64,000 bases of DNA from Eledone cirrhosa (Eukaryota), in NCBI GenBank assembly GCA_964016885.1, contig OZ024751.1, positions 186,001 through 250,000 of the forward strand. Reading direction: 5' to 3'. The translations under genes were made by a program, and so were the position numbers. Below are positions 19,419 to 35,628 of the stretch, piece after piece. The notes below the pieces were generated by a model. It worked only from the letters and a program-made list of their open reading frames with translations, did no database searches and was not told the DNA's origin. How positions within the stretch are numbered: position 1 is the first letter of the stretch; every line of letters begins with the position of its first letter.

Positions 19419-19535
19419 GAGGCATTGAAGCGTCTCTCTTTACCTGCTGATATGCGTCTTCCAGAAAATTATCTTGCTCAACAAGGCATCAGTCCTGAAG
19501 GCCAGTTGAGTCGGAGATCGCGAAGAAAGTCCCTG
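19419..19535 (+). CDS. CDK17: CDK17-like coding exon 4
   Basis: EALKRLSLPADMRLPENYLAQQGISPEGQLSRRSRRKSL, with the PCTAIRE KRLSLPAD and RRxSL motifs. ctcAG / GTAAGT. Confidence 0.95.
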
Positions 19536-19994
19536 GTAAGTTCCGTAGTTAATTTTGTTGCTGTTGTTGAACCCAGCGTGACTGTGAACCAGCAAACCTA
19601 AAACCAGAGCCATTACCATGCCACATTTTATTCATGCAGTCTATCTAGAACAGAGGCAATAAATTCGCAAAGTTGTTAGACCTTCGTATGTGTGTGTATG
19701 TATATGTCTTATATTCATGTGTGCGTATGTATTATATTCAGATGTGTGTGTGTATGTATGTATATGTCGGGTCACTCTTGAGTGCAACTGGTAACATGTA
19801 ACCCAGTACAATCTGTCGCATGGTCAGGTCGTCGGCGACTAAATCGACAACCCCATAAAGTTTACTTGGTGAGGAGGGTGATTTTGGACACCCTGCGCAA
19901 CAAAAAACAAAACCTGACAAAGGTCAGGAGAACTTGTCAACGGCCATCCGAAAATGTGTAAATATGTGTATGTGTGTATATATATATATATATA

Positions 19995-20600
19995 TCAAAA
20001 GCATGTATTGAGTTAGAAACTCAAAATAGTCTCATTACAGTAAAGCTCTAGGAAAAAGGTTTTTCTGAGCTGTATAGTATAATTGAACAAAAAAGAAAAA
20101 CGAACACAGGCATATATATGTATACGTTCAAATCGTAATGGACCAGAAACGCTAAGGTTGAAAAAAATACTAGCTACAGACAATAGGGTTTGTTAGACTC
20201 AATTTAAGAATAAATCAAGAAAAATAAATACAAACCAGTATTGTGGTAACTACCCATCACCCGAACGGTTTTTGATGGAACCGTTTCGCAGTATTATTTG
20301 TGAAGAGTTATACCAAATTCTTGGCTCATCAGCAGGTGAAGAATTAGTATCCTGATCACTTCTAAATAAAATAAAGAACTGGATAGTGTGTGTATATGTA
20401 ACGCACATGGTTTCCAAACTTAGCGCGTCGCGCAAACTCACGTCACTAAAAATAGCAGCCGGGTCTACACGACAATTGAAATAGCTCTACAAATTAACGG
20501 ATAGTATTTTTTTCACCTTAGCGTTTCTGGTCCATTACGATTTGAACGCATACATGCATATGTCTGTGTTCGTTTTTCTTTTTTGTTCAGTTATACTATA
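19995..20600 (-). mobile_element. Inverted-repeat non-autonomous element carrying a hammerhead, in (TA)n
   Basis: ~100-bp inverted repeats (~20073-20172 / ~20502-20600) enclose the 20257-20339 hammerhead. (TA)n flanks. Confidence 0.55.
20257..20339 (-). ncRNA. Type I hammerhead ribozyme (complete three-stem fold)
   Basis: Minus strand reads UCACCUG-CUGAUGA-GC..AUUUG/CAAAU..GC-GAA-ACGGUU(CCAUCAAA)AACCGU-U-CGGGUGA. Stem I 7 bp, stem III 6 bp, cleavage triplet GUU. Confidence 0.8.
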
Positions 20601-20634
20601 CATATATATATATATGTGTGTGTGTATACATGTA

Positions 20635-20915
20635 TGCATGGGGACATAGAAATAATCGGGTTGGATACCCAATCGTGCGGTTAAACCACTGGGAGTGAAG
20701 GACCCCTAGATTTTGTCAGGGCATTCTTCTAGGAGAAGGAAACTGGGATAACTCCGACATAAATCCTGGGGCTGAGTAGTTACCGATGATGTTGATCTTT
20801 TCTTCTTTTCAGGTTATAGCTACTGTCGCTCAGAGAGTGGGATTGGCTCAGTGCACGGTTTTTCCTCACTTTTAAAAAAATCTTCATGCACAAGCATTGC
20901 ACGATAGAATTAATT
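20635..20915 (+). mobile_element. Short non-autonomous interspersed repeat; inverted copy at ~40450-40737
   Basis: Two ~280-bp similar copies in opposite orientation; contains TCTAGGAGAAGGAAACT, reminiscent of RTE 5' UTRs. Confidence 0.55.
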
Positions 20916-21461
20916 GATGATTATTGATAATGTTATATTGTGCAATGGCCAAACTTGATAACGAGGGGTCATCCATCATATGTATTATATACATGTGTGT
21001 ATGTATATATATAGAGAGAGAGAGAGAGATATACATATGCGATTTTCAGACCGAGCGATGTGTTGTGTTCTTGAGCAAGACACTTTATTTCACGTTGCTC
21101 CAGTTTACTCAGCTGTAGAAATGAGTTGCAACATCACCGGTGCCAATGTGTATCAATCAATGCCTTTTTCTTGCCCAACATCAGTGGTGTTGAGAGGAGA
21201 GACTTGTATGCAAGGGCGAATGCTGGTCTTTCACAATAACATGTCTAATCTTGAGTCTTGGCGGGGAAACTTTCTAAGTACAAAACCCATGGCCATCCAT
21301 GACTGAAAGGGGTTATTTATATATATGTGCATGTGTGTATATACATACATATTAACAGTGTATATTGTATTATTATCTATGTGTTTGTATGTTCCCCTGT
21401 TAATCCTAAAATCCCTATAAAGGAGCATCCCAGTAACAGTCTAAAATGTCTTGTATTCCAG

Positions 21462-21518
21462 TCTGAAATTGGATTTGGTAAAATGGAATCATATTTAAAA
21501 TTGGACAAATTAGGAGAG
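21462..21518 (+). CDS. CDK17: CDK17-like coding exon 5
   Basis: SEIGFGKMESYLKLDKLGE, start of the kinase domain. ccAG / GTTTGT. Confidence 0.95.
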
Positions 21519-22889
21519 GTTTGTGACTTTTCTTCATTTTAAAGAAATATATTTTTATTTTCTGACTTATATTTTTATAACTTAGTCAAGGGAGGATTGG
21601 CTCCATGACCCTTTGTGAGGCCTTCAAGACCGAAGGGAGGAAGGACTATGCCTATGACCCTTTTTCTGTGCTTTCAAAACAAAAGAGAGGAGGTGCAGGG
21701 TCTGTCACCCTTTTATGGGCTTTCAAGACCAGAGGAAGGGCAGTGTCTATGACCCTTTTTAGTGCAAGGACTCTAAGACTTCTGGGAAGAATGGAGGATA
21801 AACAATCCTTATAACCCATATCAGGGTCTCCAAAGACGAGCAGTGCCCATAACTCTGAAAAGGACTATGGGCATTCAGGTTTAAGACCAGGGGGAAACAG
21901 TTATCTTGTATCTCTCTTTCTCCTTCTCTTAAAGAAATCAGCCATGTTCAGACTTGGAGGGGATGCGCTATGTGATAATTCTGTCAGACATTCAAAACAA
22001 TCTTCTTGTATTTTAAATTCCCATAATTCTGTCAGACCCTCGAAAACAATCTTCCTGTATTTAAACTCTGATTACTGTGATCTGCTCATTTAATTATGGC
22101 CGAATTTCTAGGACTATATTATAAAATAACCTTCTCGCTTCTACTCCTTTTGCGAAACTTCTTCCTACTCCTTTCTCTGTCCCCCTCATATATCGTATAT
22201 ATGCCTGCAGGTTCTCTCACCCCCTCCCTCTCTCCGCAAATATAAAATAAACATGTTGTGAGTTGCGGATCTCAAAGTTTGTCGATCCCTTATCTTGGCC
22301 GAACGCTTGCTTTTGAGAAATGTAATGTATTTCACCCTATTTTCTTCTCTCTCCATGTTCCTAGTCCATTCACCTATCAGTATTATATCGTCTGCTTAAC
22401 TTAGAATCCAATCTTTTCAATGTTATTCGATAATTCTGTCTGATTGTTCAAAATAATCTTCTTGTATTTAAAATCCCATAATTCTGTCAGACCCTCGAAA
22501 ATAATCTTCTACTTGTATTTAAACTCTTATTACTGTTATATGCTCGTTTAATTATGGCCGAATTTCTAGGATAGAAATTTTTATATTATAAAATAACCTT
22601 CTCGCTAACTTCCTCAGATACCTCCCCCTCACCCCACCATTATTATTTGGTCCAATCATAATTCAGCAGCTTATAATATGTTTCTCTTACCAATCTCTTA
22701 TCACAAAACCACCGCCTCGGCTATCACTCCTTAAGTTCAAACCTGGTTGCTTTTGATATGCTAGATGGACTATGGAATTCTGGAGAGTCTGAAGAATCTG
22801 GACACAAAATGACAATGTCAAAGATAAAGATAAATTCACCTCATATTGCCGGATGAGAATGCAAGGACTCCTCTTTATTTCGGCCGCGG

Positions 22890-25800
22890 ATGGCTAACAT
22901 AACCCCATCTCCCTCACCCCTCCCTGCGCCTCATCCTTCCCACCCACCAAACGCAATCCAAAACTTCAGAGTTGGTTCCATGAACGTAGGCACCTTAAAA
23001 GGTCGCTCTAACGAGGTTGTAGAGATGCTTGAACGTAAGGAAGTTGATATTTGCTGTGTTCAAGAGATCAGGTGGAGGGGTGAGTCTGCTAGATTCATTG
23101 TGGGTAAAAAACGATGCTATAAACTTTTCTGGGTGGGAAATGACAATGGGCTGGGTGGAGTAGGAATCATGCTAGCAGAAAAATGGGTAGATAAGATAAT
23201 AGACGTAAATAGAGTGAATGACAGAATAATTAAAATAAGTCTTGTCCTAAATAGAACTACTGTGACAATAATATCCGCGTATGCACCCAATCCGGACTGC
23301 TTGGCGTTATAAAAGACAGATTCTATGAGTCGCTAATGCTCACTACCTCCCAAATAACTGACAGTGACTGCATAATTATTGCTGGTGACCTAAATGGTCA
23401 CGTTGGACAACACTGTGACGGCTATGACGGAATCCACGGAGGCTATGGGTTTGGTACCAGAAATGAGGAAGGCTCCAGAATTCTGGAATTCTGTGACGCT
23501 AATAACCTAACTATCTGTAACACAAACTTCAAACAACGAGACAATCACTTGATCACCTATTGATCAGGGGAACACGCCAGTCAGATAGATTATATCCTTA
23601 CCAGAAGACGTGACAGTGTCTGTTGTAAACACTAAATCCCTCCCCCATGAAGAATGCACCTCCCAACATAGCCTCATAGTCAGGACGAGACGTACTCAAC
23701 AACAAAGCAGGACTACCCTAAGGAGAAGAATATGGAAGTTAAAGGACCCCACAGCTAGTAACAAATTTAAAAGCATATTACTTGATGCTTTTGACAGTAA
23801 GGAAGAGCAATTAGAGACGTACAATATAGAGGAACAGTGGGAATTCCTGAAAGTTAACCTGCTGAAGGCGACAGATGAAATCTGTGGCTGGAACAGACCT
23901 ATAGGCAGGAGGAGAGTAACGTGGTGGTGGAATAGTAAGGTGGAGGAGTCAATCAAGGCAAAAAAGCAGGCTTGGAAAGTATGGCGGGATGGAGCAAGTA
24001 GAGAACACTATCAAGTGGCCAGCAGAGAAGCTAGGAGACATGTGTACTTTGCAAGAAGGGAAGCAGAGGAAAGAAAGTTCAAGCATGTTCTACAACGCGA
24101 GGACCAAAAACGTGAGGTGTTCAGGATTGCTAGGCAATGTGTCAAGGAAAACCGTGATATTGTCGGGGAGAAGTGTGTCCGTAATGATGATGGTGTACTT
24201 GCCATCACTGATGCTGATAAGAAGGTAGCTTGGAAGTGTCACTACGAGAGACTACTAAATGAGAATAAATGGGAAAAAGATAGTCTGGCCCACATCGATC
24301 CAATAGAGGGACCAGCAGTGCAAGTTGAAGGTAGTATAATAAGTAAGGCAAGGCAGCTGGGCCTTCGGAGATAGTTGCTGAAATGCTGAAAGCATCTGGA
24401 ACGGTGGGACACACTATGGTCACCCGGATAGTAAAACAAGCCATACTAGCTCTTTCAATTGTGCAGAGAGTTCTATAGAAATAGTGGACAGCTTCCGTTA
24501 CCTGGGTGACAAAATCAGCAGTGGGGGAGGGTGCTCTGAAAGTACAGTAGCTAGAGTCAGAACTGGATGGAAAAAGTTCAGAGAGCTTATACCACTATTA
24601 GCCGCTAAAGGGTTCTCCCTAAAAATGAAAGGCAGGCTGTATGATGCCTGCATACGAACAGCAATATTGCATGGCAGTGAGTCCTGGGCATTGTGTGCAG
24701 AGGATATACGCAGACTAGAGAGGAACGAAGCTTGCCTGCTCCGCTGGATGTGTAATAGTAATATACGCGAACGGCAAAGCATAAATGAACTAAGGGAAAA
24801 ATTAGAAATAAGAGGGATCAGATGTTGTTTACTCGAGAGAAGGATACGTTGGTATGGTCACGTAATGCGCATGAAAGACGACAGCTGTATAAAAAAGTGC
24901 AGGGCAATAAAGATAGACGGTAGCCACGGAGTAGGCAGACCCAGAAAAACCTGGGACGACCTGATAAACTCCGACCTCACACACTTACACCTCTCCAAGA
25001 CAATGTCACTGGACCGAGATCTTTGGCGGCACTCAGTAATAGAGAAGACCCGCCTTACCTAAATACAAAGTAAAACCTACTACAGTCAGTAGGCATCTCT
25101 AACAAAATACACCACCCCCACCCCATCCACACCGCCCCTTTCAATGTAAAGTTATGTTGGTGCCACAACATCCAGGCCGAAACAAATGAGATCGTGTAGG
25201 TGTCACGACAAAAAAACACACAGTCCACGCTGTAATGTGGCCGTGTAGGCAACACGGTAAAAACCTCCCAGTCCCACACTGTAAATGTGGTTGGTGTTAG
25301 GAAGGGCATCCAGCTGTAGAAAACCCGCCAGACAGTCCTATGCGAGCAAGACAACCAATCTTGCCTCAAGTGGGAAAACTCCCGTCCAAACCCATGCAAG
25401 CGTGGAACATGGACGTTAAACGATGATGATGATGATGATACAGAATGGGGTCATACCAAATGACTGGCGTAGCAGCAGCATCATTAACTGCTACAAGGGT
25501 AAAGGAGGTGCCCTAGATAGGGGAAACTATAGAGGCATTAAATTAATTGACCAGGTCATGAAGGTCACAGAAAAAGTTATAGCGCAACTAATCAGAGAGA
25601 AAATTGATCTAGACGAAATGCAGTTCGGGTTTGTGTCAAGTAAAAGTACCACAGACGCCCTTTTCCTTGTACAGGAGAAGTACCTAGCTAAAAGTAAACC
25701 CCTATACTTAGCTTTTGTTGACTTGGAGAAAGCATTTGACAGAGTCCCCCGCGCCATTATCTGGTGGGCCCTTAGAAAACTAAGGGTTGATGAATGGCTG

Positions 25801-27286
25801 GTGAGAGCTATACAAGCCATGTATAAAGAAACAGCCAGCAAGGTTAGAATTAACAACGAATATAGTGAAGAATTTAGCGTAAAAGTTGGTGTTCATCAAG
25901 GCTCTGTCCTTAGCCCCCTCCTATTTATTATTGCCCTTTAGGCTATAACAGAGGAGTTCAAGACTTGCTGCCCATGGGAACTTCCATATGCAGATGATCT
26001 AAAGCTCATAGCTGAACTAGAGAAGAAATTCCAAACTTGGAAGCATGGCCTAGAATCAAAAGGCCTTAAAATTAACTTGTCTAAGACTAAAGTTCTAGTA
26101 TGTAGGAAGAAAAATAGAGCACCCTCTGGGAAATGACCATGCTCAGTGTGTAGGAAAGGAGTAGGCAGAAATTCCATTTTATGTCCCAAATGCAAAGTAT
26201 GGGTGCATAAAAGATGTAGTGGGATCACAGGTAAGCTATCTAAGAACGTAGATTTTATATGTGGCCGGTGCTCAGGTGCAATAACTAGCAAGTGCCCACA
26301 AGATACTAGCTCCTTCCATTGCCCAGATGACTCTATAGAAATAGTGGACACCTTCCGTTACATGGCTGACAAAATCAGCAGTGGTGGAGGGTGCTCAGAA
26401 AGTACAGTAGCCAGAAATCAGAACGGGATGGAAAAAGTTCGGAGAGCTTATACCACTATTGGCCACTAAAGGTTCTCTCTAAAAATGGAAGGCAGACTGT
26501 ATGATGCCTGCATATGAACAGCTATGTTACATGGCAGTGAGACATGGCTTTGTGTGCAGAGGATCTGCGCAGACTGGAGAGGAACGAAGCATGCATGCTC
26601 CGTTGGATGTGTAATAGTAATATACATGAATGGCAAAGCATAAATGAACTAAGTGAGAAATTAGGTATAAGAGGGATCAGATGCTGTTTACTCGAGAGAA
26701 GGCTACGTTGGTATGGTCACATGATGCGCATGAAAGACGACAGCTGTATGAAAAAGTGCAGGGCGATCAAAATAGATGGAAGTTATGGAGTAGGTAGACC
26801 CAGAAAAACCTGGGACGATTTGATAAATTCCAACCTTACACCTCTCTAAGACAATGTCACTGGACCAAGATCGTTAGCGCTACGCAGTAATACAGAATGC
26901 CTGCCTTGTCTAAGTACAAAGCGAAACCTACAGTCAGTAGGCACCTCTTAATCAAATATACACCTCCAATCCACTGCCCCAACTCCCCCACCTCTTTCTC
27001 TGTAAAATTATGTTGGTACCACAACATCCAGTCCTAAATAAATGAGGTCGTGTAGATGTCACGACATAAAAACACACAGTCCACGCTGTAATGTGACTGT
27101 GTAGGTAACACGGTAAAAACCTCCCAGTCCACACTGTAAACGTGGATGGTGTTAGGAAGGGCATCCAGCCATAGAAAACCTGCCAGATAGTCCTAAATGA
27201 GCAAGACGACCAATCTTGCCTCAAGTGGGACAATTCCCGTCTAAACCCATGCTAGCGTGGAAGATAGACATTAAACGATGATGATT
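22890..27286 (+). mobile_element. Near full-length degenerate RTE-clade LINE (family A): APE endonuclease, RT, PHD-like finger, (GAT)n tail
   Basis: ORF pieces with APE motifs (SMNVGTL, CVQEIRW, AGDLNGH), RT motifs (FVDLEKAFDRVP, GVHQGSVLSP, YADDL) and a C-terminal LRWYGH..RPRKTW. Stops and frameshifts present. Confidence 0.92.
24447..25437 (+). mobile_element. 5'-truncated RTE family A copy nested inside the 22890-27286 element
   Basis: Host frame ...KQAI|QNGVIPNDW is interrupted by a C-terminal ORF, 3' UTR and (GAT)n tail. ATAC occurs at both junctions. Confidence 0.8.
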
Positions 27287-27446
27287 AGACATGCTATGTA
27301 TTGGGGCTGTGCCCTTACAACTTCATGAAGAGTTAAGGGCCTTTCCTGTCCTTTTTGCAATGAAAGGGTGAAAGACAGTCAGAATATGAACCATAAACCC
27401 CCTTATTTGAAGGAGTTCTCTACTTTCTCTGTATCTCATCTTTCAG

Positions 27447-27561
27447 GGAACTTATGCAACAGTCTTCAAAGGTAAAAGTAGACTAACAGATAACTTGGTT
27501 GCACTTAAAGAAATTCGTCTTGAACATGAAGAAGGAGCTCCGTGTACGGCCATCAGAGAAG
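27447..27561 (+). CDS. CDK17: CDK17-like coding exon 6 (Gly-loop, VALK, PCTAIRE helix)
   Basis: [38 protein letters not shown](V), containing the diagnostic PCTAIRE motif. ttcAG / GTATGT. Confidence 0.98.
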
Positions 27562-27847
27562 GTATGTTGTATATCTTTTATTGTGGAGGGGTCAGTTGAC
27601 TCTCTGTCTCTGGTGTGTGTGGTCGTTGCTTAACACTGTGGGTGTTTTGTGGTTGGTCAACACTGGGTGTGTGTGGTGGTGTCGACACTGTATGTTTGGT
27701 CTGTCAACGCTATGTAGAGGTCAGTAGACTGAGTTTCATCTGTCAACACTGTGTGTGTAATCGTTAGTAGACAGTAGGTGGGTGTGTGTATGTAGTGGTC
27801 AGTCTCTGCTTCTAACATAATGTCCTCTCTCTTTTTCTGTTTTTCAG

Positions 27848-27942
27848 TCTCACTCTTACGAGAATTGAAACATTCAAACATTGTAACATTACATGATATA
27901 ATTCACACCGATAAATCGCTAACTCTAGTCTTTGAATATTTG
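27848..27942 (+). CDS. CDK17: CDK17-like coding exon 7
   Basis: (V)[31 protein letters not shown]. ttcAG / GTAAGT. Confidence 0.97.
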
Positions 27943-29164
27943 GTAAGTATTTAATTCCATGAGAATTTAGCTTGACTTTCTTTTACCTTCAGTTTTCTAA
28001 CATTTTGATGTTTTTTTTGTTAGTTCATTTTAAAAATCTCTGTAGTAACATTTGATATGTATAAGACATCAAAAAGGTCCGTTTTGGTCTTAGACTTGTG
28101 TAAAGTCCCCTACATGTCTATGATAGTTACAATGTGAATCTATAAGATACTCTGTGAGTCTAAGAGATTCACTGTTGTATCTGTGAAGCCCCCTATGAGG
28201 TCCCCTGTTGTATCTATGAGACCCTCAGTATGTATATGAGGTCACCTGTTGGATCTCTGGGTGGCCCCTTGTTCTATCTATGTGGACACGTATATTGTGT
28301 GAGGTTGCCTGTTGGATCTGTGAGGCCCTCTGTTGGTTCTAAGACTTCTATGAGGATATTATATGTTCTCTTGAATGAAATGTAGAATTTAAAAGATAAA
28401 GAGAAAAAAAAGTAAAATAAAAACAAAACAAGATTGACAGAAATGAGAATATGTAAAATAATTGTTTCTACTTTTGGCACAAGGCCAACAATTATTCCAG
28501 TGTATTACTGGTACTTTATTTTATCGACCCAGTAAGGATGAAAGGCAAAGTTAACCTCAACGGGATTTATACTCGGACCATAAAGGGCCGTAACTCTTGC
28601 TGCAAAGCATGGCGTCAGACCCTCTACCTATACTGTCAATCCACTGCGGAATATGATAGTATTTGGTGCTTCCTATCATTAAAACACAAGAACCTTCCTA
28701 CAAGATATCTCATAGGAGACTAGCTAAGCCTGCACAGCTGTGAGCTGTAACTATAGCAATGCAGTGTGAAAGAAATCTCAATTATCTGAAGTAGATGAAC
28801 TTCCACCATACAGGTAAATTCTGTTATAACGAATTTTTTCAGTATAACGAAATTTTTTTCAATCCCTGAGGTAATAAACAAACACTTGATTTGTTTTGGA
28901 CTATCTCGTTATAAAGGATTTTTCGCTATAATGGAATTTCACTATATTTCTTATTACTTCCCTTGTTACCTCCCTTGAATTATTCTATTTACAAACACTC
29001 GATGTGTTTTGGACTATCTCGTTATAATGGAATTTCACTGTATATTTCTTATTACTTCCCTTGTTACCTCCCTTGAATTACTCTATTTACTAGTTCCATC
29101 GTCACACACCACCCTTACATGGCTACAGTTCGGCCTTTCATTAGCGTTTGTGTTTCTCTTGCAG

Positions 29165-29227
29165 GAAAAAGATCTCAAACAATACATGGATGACTGTGGT
29201 AACATAATGAGTATGACTAATGTAACA
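29165..29227 (+). CDS. CDK17: CDK17-like coding exon 8
   Basis: EKDLKQYMDDCGNIMSMTNVT. tgcAG / GTAAGT. Confidence 0.96.
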
Positions 29228-29239
29228 GTAAGTGGTACA

Positions 29240-29412
29240 CTTTATGACAGGTCTTATATTGAAACTTGTGGCTGGTCTTTCAATGAAACTTATGACCGGT
29301 CTTACATTGAAACATACAACTGATCTTACACTGAAACATATGACTGGTCTTACATTGAAACATACAACTGATCTTACATTGAAACATATGACTGGTTTTA
29401 CATTGAAATACA
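29240..29412. repeat. 24-bp minisatellite (TGACTGGTCTTACATTGAAACATA)
   Basis: About 7 tandem units starting just after the exon 8 donor. Confidence 0.9.
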
Positions 29413-29945
29413 CACATGTGACTTACCTTTCTGATTTATAGTTATTGTTTTACATTCATTTTTCCATGCTTGTAAAGACTTGCTGAAACTGGAGCTTACC
29501 CCAGTTTCTTGGGAGTTACATGACTGACTCCTGGGTAGGATGCCAATCTATTACAGGACTAAACTCTCCTTCCTTCCCCCATCATCCATCTGCCTATCTA
29601 TCTCCACTATTGTAATGGAATCATAGGGGTGTTGTAGTGACATACTTGTTTTGAACATTTTAAAATCTGGCAGAGCCTGTCCCATCTTCAGGTCTGGGCA
29701 CAGCTGATTTTTCCAGAGAAGGGGGAGAGAGAGAGTGATAGAAAGGAAGTGAAAAGGATATATAAAGGAAGAATTGAACACTACTTAACTGGTATTATTT
29801 TGTCAAGCTAGATAGGATGAAAGGCAAAGTTAACCTCGACTGGTTTTAAACTCAGAATGCAGAGAACTACAACAAATACTGCAAATAGATTCTATTTGAT
29901 ATTCTAACGACTCTGCCAATTCCAACACCACCTCTCCATCTTTAG

Positions 29946-30125
<180 letters not shown>

Positions 30126-30159
30126 TGAATTTTCTTTGGTCATTTTAATGTCCACTTTC

Positions 30160-30442
30160 CCTGCTACCTTAACCAACCCCTTGACCTCTACCTTAACCAA
30201 CCCCTTGACCACTACCTTAACCAACCCCTTGACCACTACCTTAACAAACCCCTTGACCACTACCTTAAACCCCTTGACCACTATCTTAACAAACCCCTTG
30301 ACCACTACCTTAACAAACCCCTTGACCACTATCTTAACAAACCCCTTGACCACTACCTTAAACCCCTTGACCACTACCTTAACAAACTCCTTGACCACTA
30401 CCTTAAACCCCTTGACCACTATCTTAACAAACCCCTTGACCA
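30160..30442. repeat. 21/24-bp minisatellite (ACCTTAACAAACCCCTTGACCACT)
   Basis: About 12 tandem units. Confidence 0.93.
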
Positions 30443-30526
30443 ATATGTTCTGGTTACTCCAGTAGAATGTAATATCTTTGTGTTGTAGTTAATATATATC
30501 TCTGTTTTTCCATGTTATCTGTGCAG

Positions 30527-30587
30527 GACTAGCGCGAGCCAAATCTATACCCACTAAAACCTATTCAAATGAAGTAGTTACACTATG
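30527..30587 (+). CDS. CDK17: CDK17-like coding exon 10 (activation loop)
   Basis: (G)[19 protein letters not shown](W). tgcAG / GTAAGT, ends phase 2. Confidence 0.97.
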
Positions 30588-30949
30588 GTAAGTTAACACT
30601 ACCTTATCTTGTTGTGAGACTGCAGGTTTGGAGGGAAGTCATCACCATCATTACTATCATCATCACCATCATCACCACCACCATCATCATTACTATCATC
30701 ACCTTCATCAACATCATCATCATCATTACTATTACCATCACTGTCATCACCACCACTATCATTACTATCATCAACATCATCATCATCACTATTATCATCA
30801 CCATCATCATTACTATCACTATCATCATCGCCACCACCATCATTACTTTCATCATTACTATTATCATCACTATTACTATCATCATTATCACTATCATCCT
30901 CACTATCGCCATCATCATTGTCATTATCGCTATCATCAATACTATCACT

Positions 30950-33602
30950 ATCTTAGTCTTAGATTCTTCCGCGCTGTTCGGCGCATCGATCAGTAAGTAG
31001 TCGCCAACGGTCACGATCAGCGGCAACTTTTTCGAGACCGTGCCAGGTGATGTTGGCTGCCATCAGGTCCTTCCGGGACGTTCGTCGCCAGGTGATCCTT
31101 GGGCAACTCCGCCTCCGTTTACCACCAGACGGAGTCTAGTTCATCGCTGTTTTCGAATGCCATTCATTTGGCAGACGCAGAATATGGCCAGCCAGACGGC
31201 ACCGACGCTCCGTGACCACTCTCTGTAGCGTCCACGACTCGGCTCTCCGCAGGATCTCCTCGTTTCGTTCTCGATCGCGCCAGGACACACGAAGGATCTT
31301 TCGCAGGCACCGCTGGTGGAAAGCGTTCAGCCGTCTCTTTATTTTTTCCGTACTCTTCCAGGTCTTGCTCTCATAAAGCACTGTCGGCAGCATGATGCTC
31401 TTGTACAGGCGGAGCTTGGTCTTGGTGCTAATACATGAAGACGACCAGACTTGGCACAGCCGCTGGAAAACTGCGGCTCCTTTGCTGATCCGACAGTTGA
31501 TGTCGAGCTCCACGTCGCCGCTGCTTGTGAGAATGCTGCACAGATAGGTGAAGTGATCAACTTCCTCAAGGTCCTGTTGGTTGACTCTGATCACTGGACC
31601 TGTGTTGCTGGCCATTCTTATGACCTTGGTCTTTTTGGTGTTGATTCTCAGGCCGATCTTTTCAGCACTCTCTTGTAGGGATGTTGTTAAGGCCTGCAGA
31701 TCTGCACTGTTTTCAGCAATCAAAGCGGTCATCAGCAAATGCCAGGTCCCTCAGCCTCAACTACCCTCTCCATGGGATTCCTTGACTGGGTCCTTCATCC
31801 ATTCGCCTTAGTACAAAATCGGCTGCCAGCAGGAACAACAGTGGAGAGAGAATGCAACCCTGTCTGACTCCGGAGACAATGTCAAAGAACTCCGTCACAC
31901 CGGACTCAGTCCGCACGCAGCAGCTGGAGTTTTCATACAGGGCCTTAAAAATGGCGATCAATCTTGCAGGAATGCCATACCGTTGCGCAACATTCCACAG
32001 CGACTCCCGGTGTACACTATCGAATGCCTTCTGGAAATCAATAAAATTGACCGCCAAAGGCTGCTGTAGCTCAACGCATTGTTCGAGAATGTTGCATAGT
32101 TTAAAGATCTATCTGTTCCGTGCAAGATCGATTTTTTTTTCGGAAGCCGGCTTGTTGCTCCCGGAGCACAGAGTCGACAGCCTGCGGGAGTCAATGCAGC
32201 AGCACAGTGCAGAACGCCTTGCCTGGGACTGACAGCAATGTAATACCATGCCAGTTGTTGCGGTCTGCCAGGTTTCCCTACTTCGGCAGTTTGACGATGA
32301 CACCGCGCTGCCACTCAAGGGGAACCCGACCAACTCTCCAGCAGTGGTTCATCAAGTCTGTCAACGCCGTTATCGTGTTCTCCTCACCGAATTTGAGCAG
32401 CTCAGCAGAGATCTCATCCAGTCAGCCTGCTTTGCCGTTCCTCAAGTGGCTAATCGTCTCTTGCTTGGTGATATGGCCCTCGCAGACTTTGAGTACCTCA
32501 GTGGTTGCTGGAGCCTCTGCGGTCAAGTCTATCAGGGCGACTGGATTTGGTTGGTTCAGCGTCTCCCGGAAGTGCTCCATCCATCTCTGCTCCTGTTCCG
32601 CTCCAGTGGTCAATATCTTGCCATTTTTGTCCTCTACTGGCATGCTGGCACCGCTCGACATTCCTGTCAACTCCCTCACGATGCGGAACAGTGCTTTTGT
32701 GTCGTTTCGACCAGCAGCTTCCTCTGCCTCAGCACCCTTTTTCTCCAGCCAGTCACGTTTGTGCCACCTGCAGCTTCGCTTTACCAGTCGGTCGATTTGG
32801 CAGTATACAGCATCTCTTTTCTTTTGGTCTTCCTCCGATCTAGCAGAATCTCGCTCGACTTTTGCCTTTTTTCGTCTGTCAATCAGGTCCCACGTTGGTT
32901 CTTGGATCCATTTTTGCCTCCTCGATCCTCGTCTTCGGCCAATAGTTTCTTGTGCTGCCTCAGTCACCGCTGTCGTGAACATCGTCCATTGATCTTCCAG
33001 ATCTGCAGCCTCACTCAACTGCTGGGATCGGTTGTGTAGCGCCAGTTGGTAGAGTCACGCTTGACCGGGATACTTCAGCTTCTCCACTGAATATGGCTTT
33101 GGTCTTTCCTGACGTGTCCGTTTCTTCAGGTGCAGCTAAAGTTCCGCACACAGTAGGTGTTGGTCTGAGCCCACGTCCGCATCTCGGTACACTGACGTCA
33201 CGTACCGAGGACCACCAACGCTGGTTGATGCAGATGTAGTCGATCTCGTTTCAGCTTTTCTGGTCCGGAGACTGCCAAGTAGCCTTGTGAATCGCCTTGT
33301 GTTTGAAATAGGTGTTGCTAATGCACAAGCTGTTGATGGTACAAAATAGCTGCAGTCTCTCACCGTTGTCCGTGGTGACCACAGCAGAACCGTATGGCCT
33401 AGTGACCACAGCCGAACCGTATGGCCTGTTCCAGTCCCTGTCTGTTGCAGCTAATCTGAGTGTTGAAATCACCGATCAGTAGTTTGATGTCATGGCTGGG
33501 CAAGTTATTAAATGTGTCCTGCAGCTGTACGTAGAAGGTGTCCTTGTCGATGTTGGTTGCGTCATCAATCGGTGCGTAGCCCTGAACAACAGTGATTTTC
33601 GC
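30950..33602 (-). mobile_element. GC-rich RTE-like LINE, 5'-truncated and degenerate, with (GAT)n-rich tail region 30640-30950
   Basis: Minus-strand ORFs with FIDFQKAFDSVHRE, GVRQGCILSP, endonuclease remnants (DVGSDQHLL) and C-terminal LAGHILR. Confidence 0.9.
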
Positions 33603-33603
33603 A

Positions 33604-34045
33604 TCTAAACTATAATAAAGTAAGGAGTGCGGGACTGCGTCCAGAATATATTTTTTTACTCCGTTTGTAAAATTACTTTGAATAAATAATGAATGAATAT
33701 TACATAATTTATCTACTAAATTTCGTAACTCTTGATTAAATATATTTTATTGCTTATTTAAAGATTCACTTATAAAAACATTGCATATATTTCCGTCACT
33801 AATTTTCTCCTAATGCAGTTTATATATAATATCGTCTTTTTTAATCATGGATTACTTTACTGATTGCATAAGAGAGTGTAACACAGTCTCTCTTCAATTT
33901 CTGTGTATATTGTCAATTACAATTTTATTTGACATATCATATCTACATGCATATATTCTTGCATATAATATCAATATGTACACTACACATGCTAGCAGAA
34001 AACTTTATGTACACTACACATGCTAGCAGAAAACTTTTCTGCTAG
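33604..34045 (+). mobile_element. Non-autonomous Helitron
   Basis: A|TCTAAACTATAATAAAG...hairpin (CTAGCAGAAAA/TTTTCTGCTAG) ending CTAG|T. Inserted at an AT site with no TSD. Confidence 0.7.
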
Positions 34046-34268
34046 TCATCATTAAAGCAGGGATTAGCCTAGTGGACTCTATGATCCACTTGTGACCTTT
34101 GCCCTGTCATCTGCATTGCCTTGCCCCTTCTTCCCATCATCTTTGGCTACATCTTTGTTGGTCTTCCCCTTCCTCTACTTCCTTTCACATCTCTTTGCAA
34201 TCATCCTCTCACAGTCACTTTCATCGTTAGATGAGGTTTATCTAAATTGTCTTCTTGCTATTTTCCAG

Positions 34269-34328
34269 GTATCGACCTCCAGATGTCTTACTTGGATCCA
34301 CAGAGTACTCAACACCCATCGATATGTG
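34269..34328 (+). CDS. CDK17: CDK17-like coding exon 11
   Basis: (W)[19 protein letters not shown](W). tccAG / GTCAGT, phase 2-2. Confidence 0.97.
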
Positions 34329-34974
34329 GTCAGTACATATTTGTTATTTTTCTGTTTCGAGGGGGAGGGGTAGGTAGCAACTATGACATGTTTCACGACC
34401 TATTAATAATAATGAAAATGATTGTGTACAGTGCTCAGGTGCACTACAAGTCACCAAAGGTTCATGTAAAGTATAGAATTAGGTACAAATGTCAGGAAAG
34501 TGATCAGTGTATGAGTTATGATATATACACAGACACACACATAAGCATGCGTGTGTATGGAGGGGGATTATCAGATAGGGAGGGAAAAGAGCACCACTAA
34601 ACTAGGGACTTGGCCTAAAATGCTTATAACAGAGTGGACTGTGTTGAAGGTACCCAAAGGCCGGGTGGTAGTGATAAATCTTGTATGAGGGGTTAAGTAT
34701 AACACTTAAGCGAGGTAAGCTACGGTGGGATTTCAGCTCAGAGATACAAGAGGTCATTTGTGAGAAAGGGAAGGGCAGTGTGTCTGATACTTTTCAGACC
34801 CCTTTAGAACTGATGGGAGGGTGCTAGTGAGGGAAGTAGGTATCCTCAAGCTAGAAGTTTGGCCTGAAATACTGGCAACAGTGTGGTTTTTACTAAAGGT
34901 ACTCTTGGGCCAGGTTGTAGTGTTGGTTGATGGAATATGTCTACCACTGAATCTAAGTAGGTTTTGGGAGATGT

Positions 34975-35335
34975 AGAAGATTGACCAGTGGTGTGGATGG
35001 AAGATGTAGGAGATTGAACAGCAGTATGGCTTGGAGACAAGGTTGACCAGTGGTGTGGATAGATGGAGATTGACCAGTGGTATTGATAGGAGACAAGATT
35101 GACCAGTGGTGTGGATCGGAGATGTAGGAGGTTGACCAGCGGTGTGGATGAGAGGCTCAAGGTTGACTAGTGGTGTGGATGAGAAACAAGGTTGACCAGT
35201 GGTGTGGCTGGGAGACATGAGATTGACCGGTGGTGTGACTGGGAGACATGAGATTGACCAGTGGTGTGGCTGGGAGACATGAGGTTGACCAGTGGTATGG
35301 CTGGGAGACATGAGGTTGACCAGTGGTGTGGATGT
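34975..35335. repeat. ~31-bp minisatellite (GTTGACCAGTGGTGTGGCTGGGAGACATGAG)
   Basis: About 11 diverged tandem units upstream of exon 12. Confidence 0.9.
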
Positions 35336-35424
35336 GATGTATTTCCTGCCGGTTTAACCCTCAAGTCTCTTTTCCACTCTTTCGCTCTCTCCCACCTTCT
35401 CTAATCTGTGACCTTCTATTACAG

Positions 35425-35628
35425 GGGTGTTGGCTGTATATTCTACGAAATGGCATGTGGACGCCCGCTGTTCCCAGGGACCGCAGTTGAGGATGAACTT
35501 CATCAAATTTTCAAAATCCTAGGTACTCCAACTGAAGCAACCTTTCCCGGTATAACTGCCCATCAAGACTTTCACTCAAATAATTTCCCATTTTATGAGG
35601 CGGAGTCTTTACTAAATATTGCTCCAAG
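35425..35628 (+). CDS. CDK17: CDK17-like coding exon 12
   Basis: (W)[67 protein letters not shown](R). tacAG / GTAAGA. Confidence 0.97.

What the first reader, a model, noticed from the sequence alone, without database searches (positions are those of the whole stretch)
20257..20339. Complete, possibly monomer-active hammerhead inside an inverted-repeat element
This is the best-formed copy: 7-bp stem I (UCACCUG/CGGGUGA), intact CUGAUGA and GAAA, G10.1-C11.1, and a true 6-bp stem III with an 8-nt loop. Predicted cleavage is after GUU, between 20264 and 20263 on the minus strand. It lies in the spacer between ~100-bp inverted repeats flanked by (TA)n. Stem II is only 2 bp before an internal loop, which may lower activity.
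Basis: partly seen in the sequence, partly recalled or inferred. Interest (0 to 1): 0.75.

Follow-up and report, generated by a model that had tools for sequence, protein, structure and literature searches.

The report
Decayed ribozyme retroelement with Penelope ends
This is a real hammerhead (self-cutting RNA) motif, but in a mutated copy of a 519-base repeat found at hundreds of places in this animal genome, whose mirror-image arms end at two fixed points 83 bases apart, likely the footprint of a Penelope-type jumping-gene enzyme copying one RNA onto both ends of a DNA break.

Summary
The hammerhead at 20257-20339 (-) is real (1 strict hit; 0 in 300 shuffled windows), with the helices and cut site described. 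It is not a good copy: 63 of 76 paralogous segments read GUC, this one reads GUU with a U·G in stem I, and with native flanks it is predicted to misfold (stem I probability 0.02 vs 0.88). It lies in a 519-nt, ORF-less, circularly permuted repeat (693 exact hits of one 22-mer), antisense in an intron of a PCTAIRE-type kinase gene. The inverted repeats are not terminal: they are two 5'-truncated copies joined head-to-head whose outer ends fall at two sites 83 nt apart, next to (TA)n, one site per arm in 33 of 35 and 27 of 29 scorable inserts. Both arms of an insert share variants (44 of 44). Three sister families conserve the ribozyme by compensatory change and a hairpin between the two end sites. 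RT+GIY-YIG Penelope-like ORFs occur in the genome. Verdict: a non-LTR retrozyme likely mobilised by Penelope machinery, with an atypical ribozyme. Earlier scan notes report the same insertion pattern for other families in this genome. No RNA data.

The parts
19977..19994 (.). (TA)n target tract at the 3' end of the main arm
   Evidence: sequence
19994..20501 (-). main arm: nearly one full 519-nt monomer (monomer positions 9-519), 96% to the family majority, 3' end at end-site S2
19994..20072 (-). 'tail' between end-sites S1 and S2 (83 nt in the family; 4-nt deletion here)
20045..20071 (-). tail hairpin GCTC...GAGC conserved with changed inner stem in five related sequences; two G>A changes in this copy; likely cis element for the reverse transcriptase (inferred)
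20073..20082 (-). end-site S1 (TA-like TTATACTATA) as it lies inside the main arm
20257..20339 (-). type I hammerhead: stem I 7 bp (one U·G), CUGAUGA, stem II 2 bp + internal loop + distal helix, GAAA, stem III 6 bp, GUU; predicted cut 20264/20263
20316..20345 (-). complementary 7-mers AAUUCUU (20345-20339, 5' of stem I) and AAGAAUU (20322-20316, stem II internal loop): candidate stem I-stem II pseudoknot or off-state hairpin (untested)
20502..20601 (+). inverted second arm: 100 nt, monomer positions 338-437, 3' end at end-site S1
20600..20615 (.). (TA)n target tract at the 3' end of the second arm
   Evidence: sequence
19536..21461 (+). host intron of a PCTAIRE (CDK16-18)-type kinase gene, between exons 19419-19535 and 21462-21518; the ribozyme is antisense to it
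   Evidence: (six-frame motifs incl. [11 protein letters not shown] at ~27531), splice dinucleotides read

Best explanation
The locus is a mutated, probably inactive genomic copy of a 519-nt non-coding hammerhead repeat (a non-LTR retrozyme) that was likely inserted into a (TA)n tract by the reverse transcriptase-endonuclease of a Penelope-like element acting in trans. Shown: the motif, the circularly permuted monomer, two fixed arm ends (S1, S2) next to (TA)n, one end of each kind per two-armed insert, ragged inner junctions, shared variants between arms, covariation of the ribozyme and of the tail hairpin, and RT+GIY-YIG ORFs in the same genome. Inferred: tandem source copies are transcribed; the hammerhead cuts out unit-length RNA that is ligated to a circle; the Penelope protein binds the tail hairpin, cuts both strands of a (TA)n tract and primes one cDNA at S1 and one at S2, where the RNA is AU-rich; both cDNAs run towards the RNA 5' side, stop at variable points and are joined head-to-head, giving the inverted repeat. 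This copy then gathered about 17 substitutions, including C17>U and a C>U in stem I.
For: 120 of 138 arms end at S1 or S2, and 99 of those 120 are followed by (TA)n. One S1 plus one S2 end in 33 of 35 scorable head-to-head inserts (12 more had one unassigned end, P=2e-8) and 27 of 29 in a sample taken in genome order (12 unassigned); 12 of 12 abutting inserts in sister family B by eye. Arms of one insert differ by 4.1%, arms of different inserts by 8.5%, lower within in 44 of 44. 38 of 120 arms exceed one unit, up to 918 nt; 66 of 85 arms read through the cut site. Compensatory pairs in family A: G-C 53/A-U 11 in stem I, G-C 40/A-U 27 in stem III; stem I is fully exchanged between families A-D, with a U3-A8 core in C. 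Circular monomers fold at z -3.4 to -8.1 (25 shuffles each). ORFs with RVT_1 and C-terminal GIY-YIG (7 of 11 scanned show both), a Cys-rich linker, minimal hammerheads and (TA)n ends. Tail at one end, inverted 5'-truncated copy and microsatellite bias are Penelope traits (PMC8557442, passages); two internal RT start sites and extension of both strands were shown in vitro (PMC11167929, parts 1-2).
Against: No expression, cleavage or circle data for this family. No autonomous partner was linked by sequence: the monomer and tail profile hit only sister repeats nested beside Penelope ends, not the Penelope termini, in 45 loci; the family A tail does not match the one autonomous tail tested. The strict hammerhead fold is a minor state even for the family majority in a pseudoknot-free model (3e-4). 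In the in vitro Penelope study the start site did not differ between strands and was not homologous to the cut DNA, unlike the one-site-per-arm, TA-like ends here. Arm similarity could also come from conversion between palindrome arms. 32 loci in the genome-order sample showed no abutting second arm.
Confidence: 0.85

Rival explanations
1. Same element and same enzyme, but the template is an uncut multimeric linear transcript; the hammerhead is kept for another step (or only rarely fires), and no circle is involved.
For: 66 of 85 arms cross the cut site, which an uncut precursor explains as well as a circle. In vitro, hammerhead mutants of a Poseidon element inserted normally and unprocessed RNA was the main substrate (PMC11167929, part 2). 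Weak stem II, low predicted population of the fold.
Against: Strong covariation of the ribozyme across subfamilies means cleavage was selected. No family A array longer than 918 nt was seen among the fetched loci, so 5' truncation would erode linear masters. Slight excess of 5' ends at the cut site, 6 vs 2.4 expected (P=0.04, one of 8 bins). Monomers fold well as circles.
Confidence: 0.35
2. A MITE-like DNA transposon with ~100-bp terminal inverted repeats that targets TA and happens to carry a hammerhead in its interior (closest to the first reader's framing).
For: 93% inverted repeat and TA-rich flanks at this locus.
Against: The left repeat is ~78 nt inside the element; second arms among copies run from about 60 to over 800 nt and inner junctions vary throughout the monomer; copies are tandem, circularly permuted and 5'-truncated.
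Confidence: 0.02
3. The repeat is the truncated pseudo-LTR end of an autonomous Penelope-like element rather than an independent non-autonomous family.
For: Same layout as autonomous ends here: hammerhead about 140-200 nt before a fixed (TA)n end. Most such inserts would be 5'-truncated.
Against: Arms longer than one unit run into another copy of the monomer, not into an ORF; longest ORF in the tripled monomer is 57 codons. Autonomous families seen here carry minimal, palindromic-loop hammerheads instead.
Confidence: 0.07
4. This particular copy has been kept as an active ribozyme that affects the host kinase transcript.
For: It lies in an intron and keeps all invariant core bases; GUU fits the NUH rule (recalled).
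Against: It is antisense to the pre-mRNA; it carries about 17 substitutions of the neutral kind, several in the ribozyme and tail hairpin; predicted misfolding with native flanks; it has a single hammerhead, so it cannot release a monomer.
Confidence: 0.04

Closest known systems
Metazoan non-LTR retrozymes (Cervera & de la Pena 2020, PMC7229834; Li, Clavereau & Pollet 2026, bioRxiv 10.64898/2026.07.22.740005)
   Same: Non-coding repeat with one type I hammerhead per unit, low GC (37%), partial tandem copies, well-folded circular monomer, co-occurrence with Penelope-like elements.
   Different: 519-560 nt unit (170-400 nt in the 2020 paper; within the 51-972 bp of the 2026 preprint); 6-bp or longer stem III and 2-bp stem II instead of a 1-2 bp helix III and 4-bp helix II; mostly 0.2-1.8 units in head-to-head inserts rather than long arrays; circular RNA not shown here.
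EN+ Penelope-like elements (Neptune/Nematis-type linker; Craig et al. 2021 PMC8557442; Poseidon PAc, Frangieh et al. 2024 PMC11167929)
   Same: Partial tandems, inverted 5'-truncated copy, tail at one end only, microsatellite targets, two internal 3' end sites, hammerhead upstream of the ends.
   Different: No ORF; tail 81-83 nt instead of 30-40; ends are TA-like and paired one per arm, whereas PAc showed no strand difference and no homology to the cut DNA.
Penelope-associated hammerheads (Cervera & de la Pena 2014, PMC4209133)
   Same: Type I topology, G10.1-C11.1, U3-A8 core variant in a sister family and in autonomous elements here.
   Different: Metazoan ones are minimal or have a small palindromic helix III and need dimers; a large helix III was reported there for fungal and protist elements only.
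Pseudoknotted hammerheads (Perreault et al. 2011, PMC3088659)
   Same: Two-base-pair stem II is common and can be fast when a stem I-stem II pseudoknot forms; a candidate 6-7 bp pairing sits at that place here.
   Different: The pairing here is only suggested by modest covariation and may instead be an inhibitory hairpin.

Membership tests
Type I hammerhead ribozyme | Core CUGANGA, GAAA, UH with three helices, helix I open | tested here: met
Type I hammerhead ribozyme | Helices kept by compensatory change among homologues | tested here: met
   (counts are of related copies, not independent events; one search filtered for >=6 bp stem I)
Type I hammerhead ribozyme | Stem I-stem II tertiary contact | tested here: inconclusive
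   cognate flank/stem II duplex ranks first in 5 of 8 groups (two of them one family), sixth in one; 2.7% and 5.7% of monomer 11-mers pair as well
Type I hammerhead ribozyme | Mg-dependent site-specific self-cleavage | not testable with these tools
   bench assay needed
Non-LTR retrozyme | Non-coding unit of a few hundred nt, low GC, one type I hammerhead per unit, no LTR | tested here: met
Non-LTR retrozyme | Tandem copies with two consecutive hammerheads | tested here: met
   family level: L119, L146, L055, families B, C, D; the window copy itself has only one
Non-LTR retrozyme | Expressed as unit-length linear and circular RNA | not testable with these tools
   no RNA run available
Non-autonomous Penelope-like element | Partial tandem plus inverted 5'-truncated copy | tested here: met
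Non-autonomous Penelope-like element | Two alternative 3' ends, tail on one end only | tested here: met
   33 of 35 and 27 of 29; tail longer than described
Non-autonomous Penelope-like element | Microsatellite (TA)n target bias | tested here: met
   99 of 120 ends
Non-autonomous Penelope-like element | 3' end similar in sequence to an autonomous family | tested here: inconclusive
   none found in 45 loci drawn from 150 listed of 10596 GIY-YIG candidates; sampling far from complete
MITE / DNA transposon | Terminal inverted repeats of fixed length with fixed ends | tested here: not met

The most novel reading that the evidence does not exclude
A superfamily of ~520-560 nt circular ribozyme RNAs has evolved a dedicated docking module for a Penelope enzyme: a conserved hairpin bracketed by two AU-rich priming sites, so that a dimeric enzyme primes both broken DNA ends on one RNA circle, one on each side of the hairpin; and its hammerhead is a monomer-active animal type with a long stem III, a 2-bp stem II and a Watson-Crick stem I-stem II pairing that doubles as an off switch.
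Probability: 0.3. Interest if true: 0.7.

Novelty: new variant of a known kind. Interest (0 to 1): 0.42.

Why it matters
How animal retrozymes are copied into genomes is proposed but not shown: the 2020 paper names Penelope elements as a candidate and the 2026 preprint rests on co-occurrence and pLTR similarity. These families give nucleotide-level predictions (two start sites, one per strand, and a conserved hairpin between them) that fit the existing in vitro Penelope assay, and they bear on the unexplained one-sided tail and inverted arms of Penelope inserts. The atypical ribozyme widens the known animal hammerhead forms. The window copy itself is a decayed passenger and the wrong one to assay first.

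Tried and rejected
Rfam scan at gathering threshold: no hit, uninformative for this long-stem variant. Other hammerheads in the window: two weak loose matches only. RNA evidence: no RNA holder listed; three contig runs of unknown type, one sample, were laid and showed only that other copies read C17; their 25-fold depth drop at the ribozyme is explained mainly by subfamily divergence, not by truncation at the cut site. Pile-up of 5' ends at the cut site: 19 vs 11.7 expected in a 40-nt bin (P=0.03), 11 vs 7.1 in the less biased subset (P=0.11), 6 vs 2.4 in the genome-order set (P=0.04): weak, not corrected for bins, treated as a hint. Monomer-like hits beside GIY-YIG ORFs (L093, L111, L129, L143) proved to be sister repeats in shared (TA)n tracts, not Penelope termini. 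Tail match to an autonomous family: A and C no, B 5 of 300 and D 11 of 300 shuffles as good: not accepted. PDB search with one ORF: nothing useful. In one search I mis-registered the outer helix (37.5% paired); it is ignored but dilutes the whole-structure figures; 74 of the 76 segments were aligned. Search of earlier scan notes by sequence and nearby place: nothing. No paper giving a GUU vs GUC rate was found; that GUU is slower is recalled. Literature searches for a description of this family or pattern: searches found none in the held library; supplements were not read and repeat databases could not be searched.

Full report
Observation. On the minus strand, 20339-20257 reads as a type I hammerhead exactly as described: 7-bp stem I, CUGAUGA, a 38-nt stem II region closed by two pairs, GAAA, 6-bp stem III with an 8-nt loop, and GUU with the cut between 20264 and 20263. 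A strict descriptor finds it once in the window and never in 300 shuffled windows. Rfam has no hit at its thresholds. The inverted repeat is real, but its left arm lies about 78 nt inside the element, which ends at the (TA)n tract at 19994.

The family. The region is a dispersed repeat in a 3-Gb animal genome (1127-1741 first-look candidates; 693 exact matches of one 22-mer, 181 of a 20-mer in the ribozyme, 15 of a 33-mer of the closest subfamily). Copies define a 519-nt circularly permuted monomer with no ORF over 57 codons. The window holds monomer positions 9-519 on the minus strand, joined head-to-head to positions 338-437 on the plus strand. It sits in an intron of a PCTAIRE-type kinase gene, with the ribozyme antisense to that gene.

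This copy is degraded. Of 76 ribozyme segments, 63 have GUC and 3 GUU; 52 keep the core; 22 have core, GUC and perfect stems I and II. The window copy differs from the majority at 17 positions, including C17>U and C>U in stem I. With native flanks its predicted stem I probability is 0.02 against 0.88 for the majority, because an alternative hairpin takes in the core; as a bare 83-mer it is 0.79. The full hammerhead fold is a minor state for the majority too (3e-4) in a model without pseudoknots, so these numbers rank copies and do not give rates.

The ribozyme was selected. In family A (74 segments aligned) the pair next to the cut is G-C in 53 and A-U in 11 distinct rows, and a stem III pair is G-C in 40 and A-U in 27 (related copies, few independent events). 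Three sister families of 547, 560 and 531 nt, 54-61% identical to A, have wholly different stem I sequences that still pair, long stems III, and in one case the U3-A8 core, a variant reported for Penelope hammerheads (PMC4209133, parts 1-2 of 4 read). All keep only two pairs at the base of stem II. A 6-7 nt stretch just 5' of stem I is complementary to the stem II internal loop in most groups (cognate pair best in 5 of 8). Pseudoknots at this place rescue two-pair stems II in other hammerheads (PMC3088659, passages), so the weak stem II need not mean low activity; the same pairing could be an off state. This is untested.

The inverted repeat is an insertion scar. 120 of 138 arms end at one of two sites, S1 (position 436) and S2 (519), both TA-like, and 99 of the 120 run into (TA)n; inner ends are ragged. 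Head-to-head inserts carry one S1 and one S2 end in 33 of 35 scorable cases (47 in all; P=2e-8) and in 27 of 29 (41 in all) in a sample taken in genome order, which overlaps the first in a few loci. Family B does the same with sites 81 nt apart (12 of 12). The two arms of an insert are closer to each other than to other inserts in 44 of 44 (4.1% vs 8.5%), as expected from one template. Between S1 and S2 lies a hairpin whose outer stem is conserved and inner stem varies across five related sequences.

The likely motor. The genome holds thousands of GIY-YIG candidates; 7 of 11 ORFs scanned show RT plus C-terminal GIY-YIG, up to about 1000 codons, with a Cys-rich linker of the Neptune/Nematis kind (clade not tested by tree). 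They carry minimal palindromic hammerheads and end in (TA)n. Partial tandems, an inverted truncated copy, a one-sided tail and microsatellite bias are Penelope traits (PMC8557442, passages); a Penelope protein cuts and extends both strands and starts at two internal RNA sites that match the tail (PMC11167929, parts 1-2 of 4). That study saw no strand difference and no homology with the target, so the pairing seen here goes beyond it. I found no autonomous family sharing the tail in 45 loci.

Circle or linear. 66 of 85 arms read through the cut site and 38 of 120 exceed one unit, so templates were religated or uncut. Good circular folding, selection on the ribozyme and the known retrozyme cycle (PMC7229834, passages and Discussion) favour a circle, about 60:40. 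A slight excess of 5' ends at the cut site is only a hint. No RNA run was available.

Comparison and score. It works like, and meets the sequence-level features of, a non-LTR retrozyme and a non-autonomous Penelope-like element (bioRxiv 10.64898/2026.07.22.740005, parts 1-3 of 5 read); it is not a MITE. It differs in ribozyme build, unit size and tail length. Earlier notes of this scan describe the same two-armed, two-site pattern for 310-, 422- and 478-nt families in this genome and call the host a cephalopod (seen after my own counts, their families not checked); none matched this sequence. I found no paper on this family in five searches; supplements unread may bear on this. The locus is a decayed passenger; the family adds a testable docking hairpin and an atypical ribozyme. 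Interest 0.42.

Noticed in passing
window 19419-35500 (+): Exons of a PCTAIRE/CDK16-18-type kinase (e.g. 19419-19535, 21462-21518, ~27447-27560) with repeat-filled introns.
   Followed up: partly
L143:3447-4091, L183, L203, L219: Three sister retrozyme families (547, 560, 531 nt), two of them young (97-99% identity among top hits), with ~65-nt stem III inserts; family C has the U3-A8 core, family D cuts after GUA/AUA-type triplets.
   Followed up: yes
monomer positions 356-381 (window ~20128-20153): Hotspot of arm 5' ends (16 vs 7.3 expected in the less biased set) that coincides with the 3' side of a predicted long-range helix; possible RT stall.
   Followed up: partly
L144:6890-7560: Head-to-head insert whose two arms come from two different hammerhead families, each ending in (TA)n: a possible two-template insertion.
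   Followed up: no
L126:2775-6062, L127:3809-6622, L128:2988-5519: Long open Penelope-like RT+GIY-YIG frames; the L127/L138 family shows two ends about 71 nt apart and a U3-A8 minimal hammerhead.
   Followed up: partly
L136:8568-9562, L035:1127, L115:2936: Another hammerhead repeat with palindromic CTAG loop III in tandem at ~500-nt spacing.
   Followed up: no
monomer positions 1-155 (window ~20350-20501): Blocks conserved across all four families upstream of the ribozyme (e.g. GAGCT, G.TGCGT, AGTGA); could be an internal promoter.
   Followed up: no
window 21588-21822 and 21970-22600: A diverged ~50-nt tandem repeat and a ~430-nt duplicated segment, followed by a LINE endonuclease-like frame from ~22980.
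   Followed up: no
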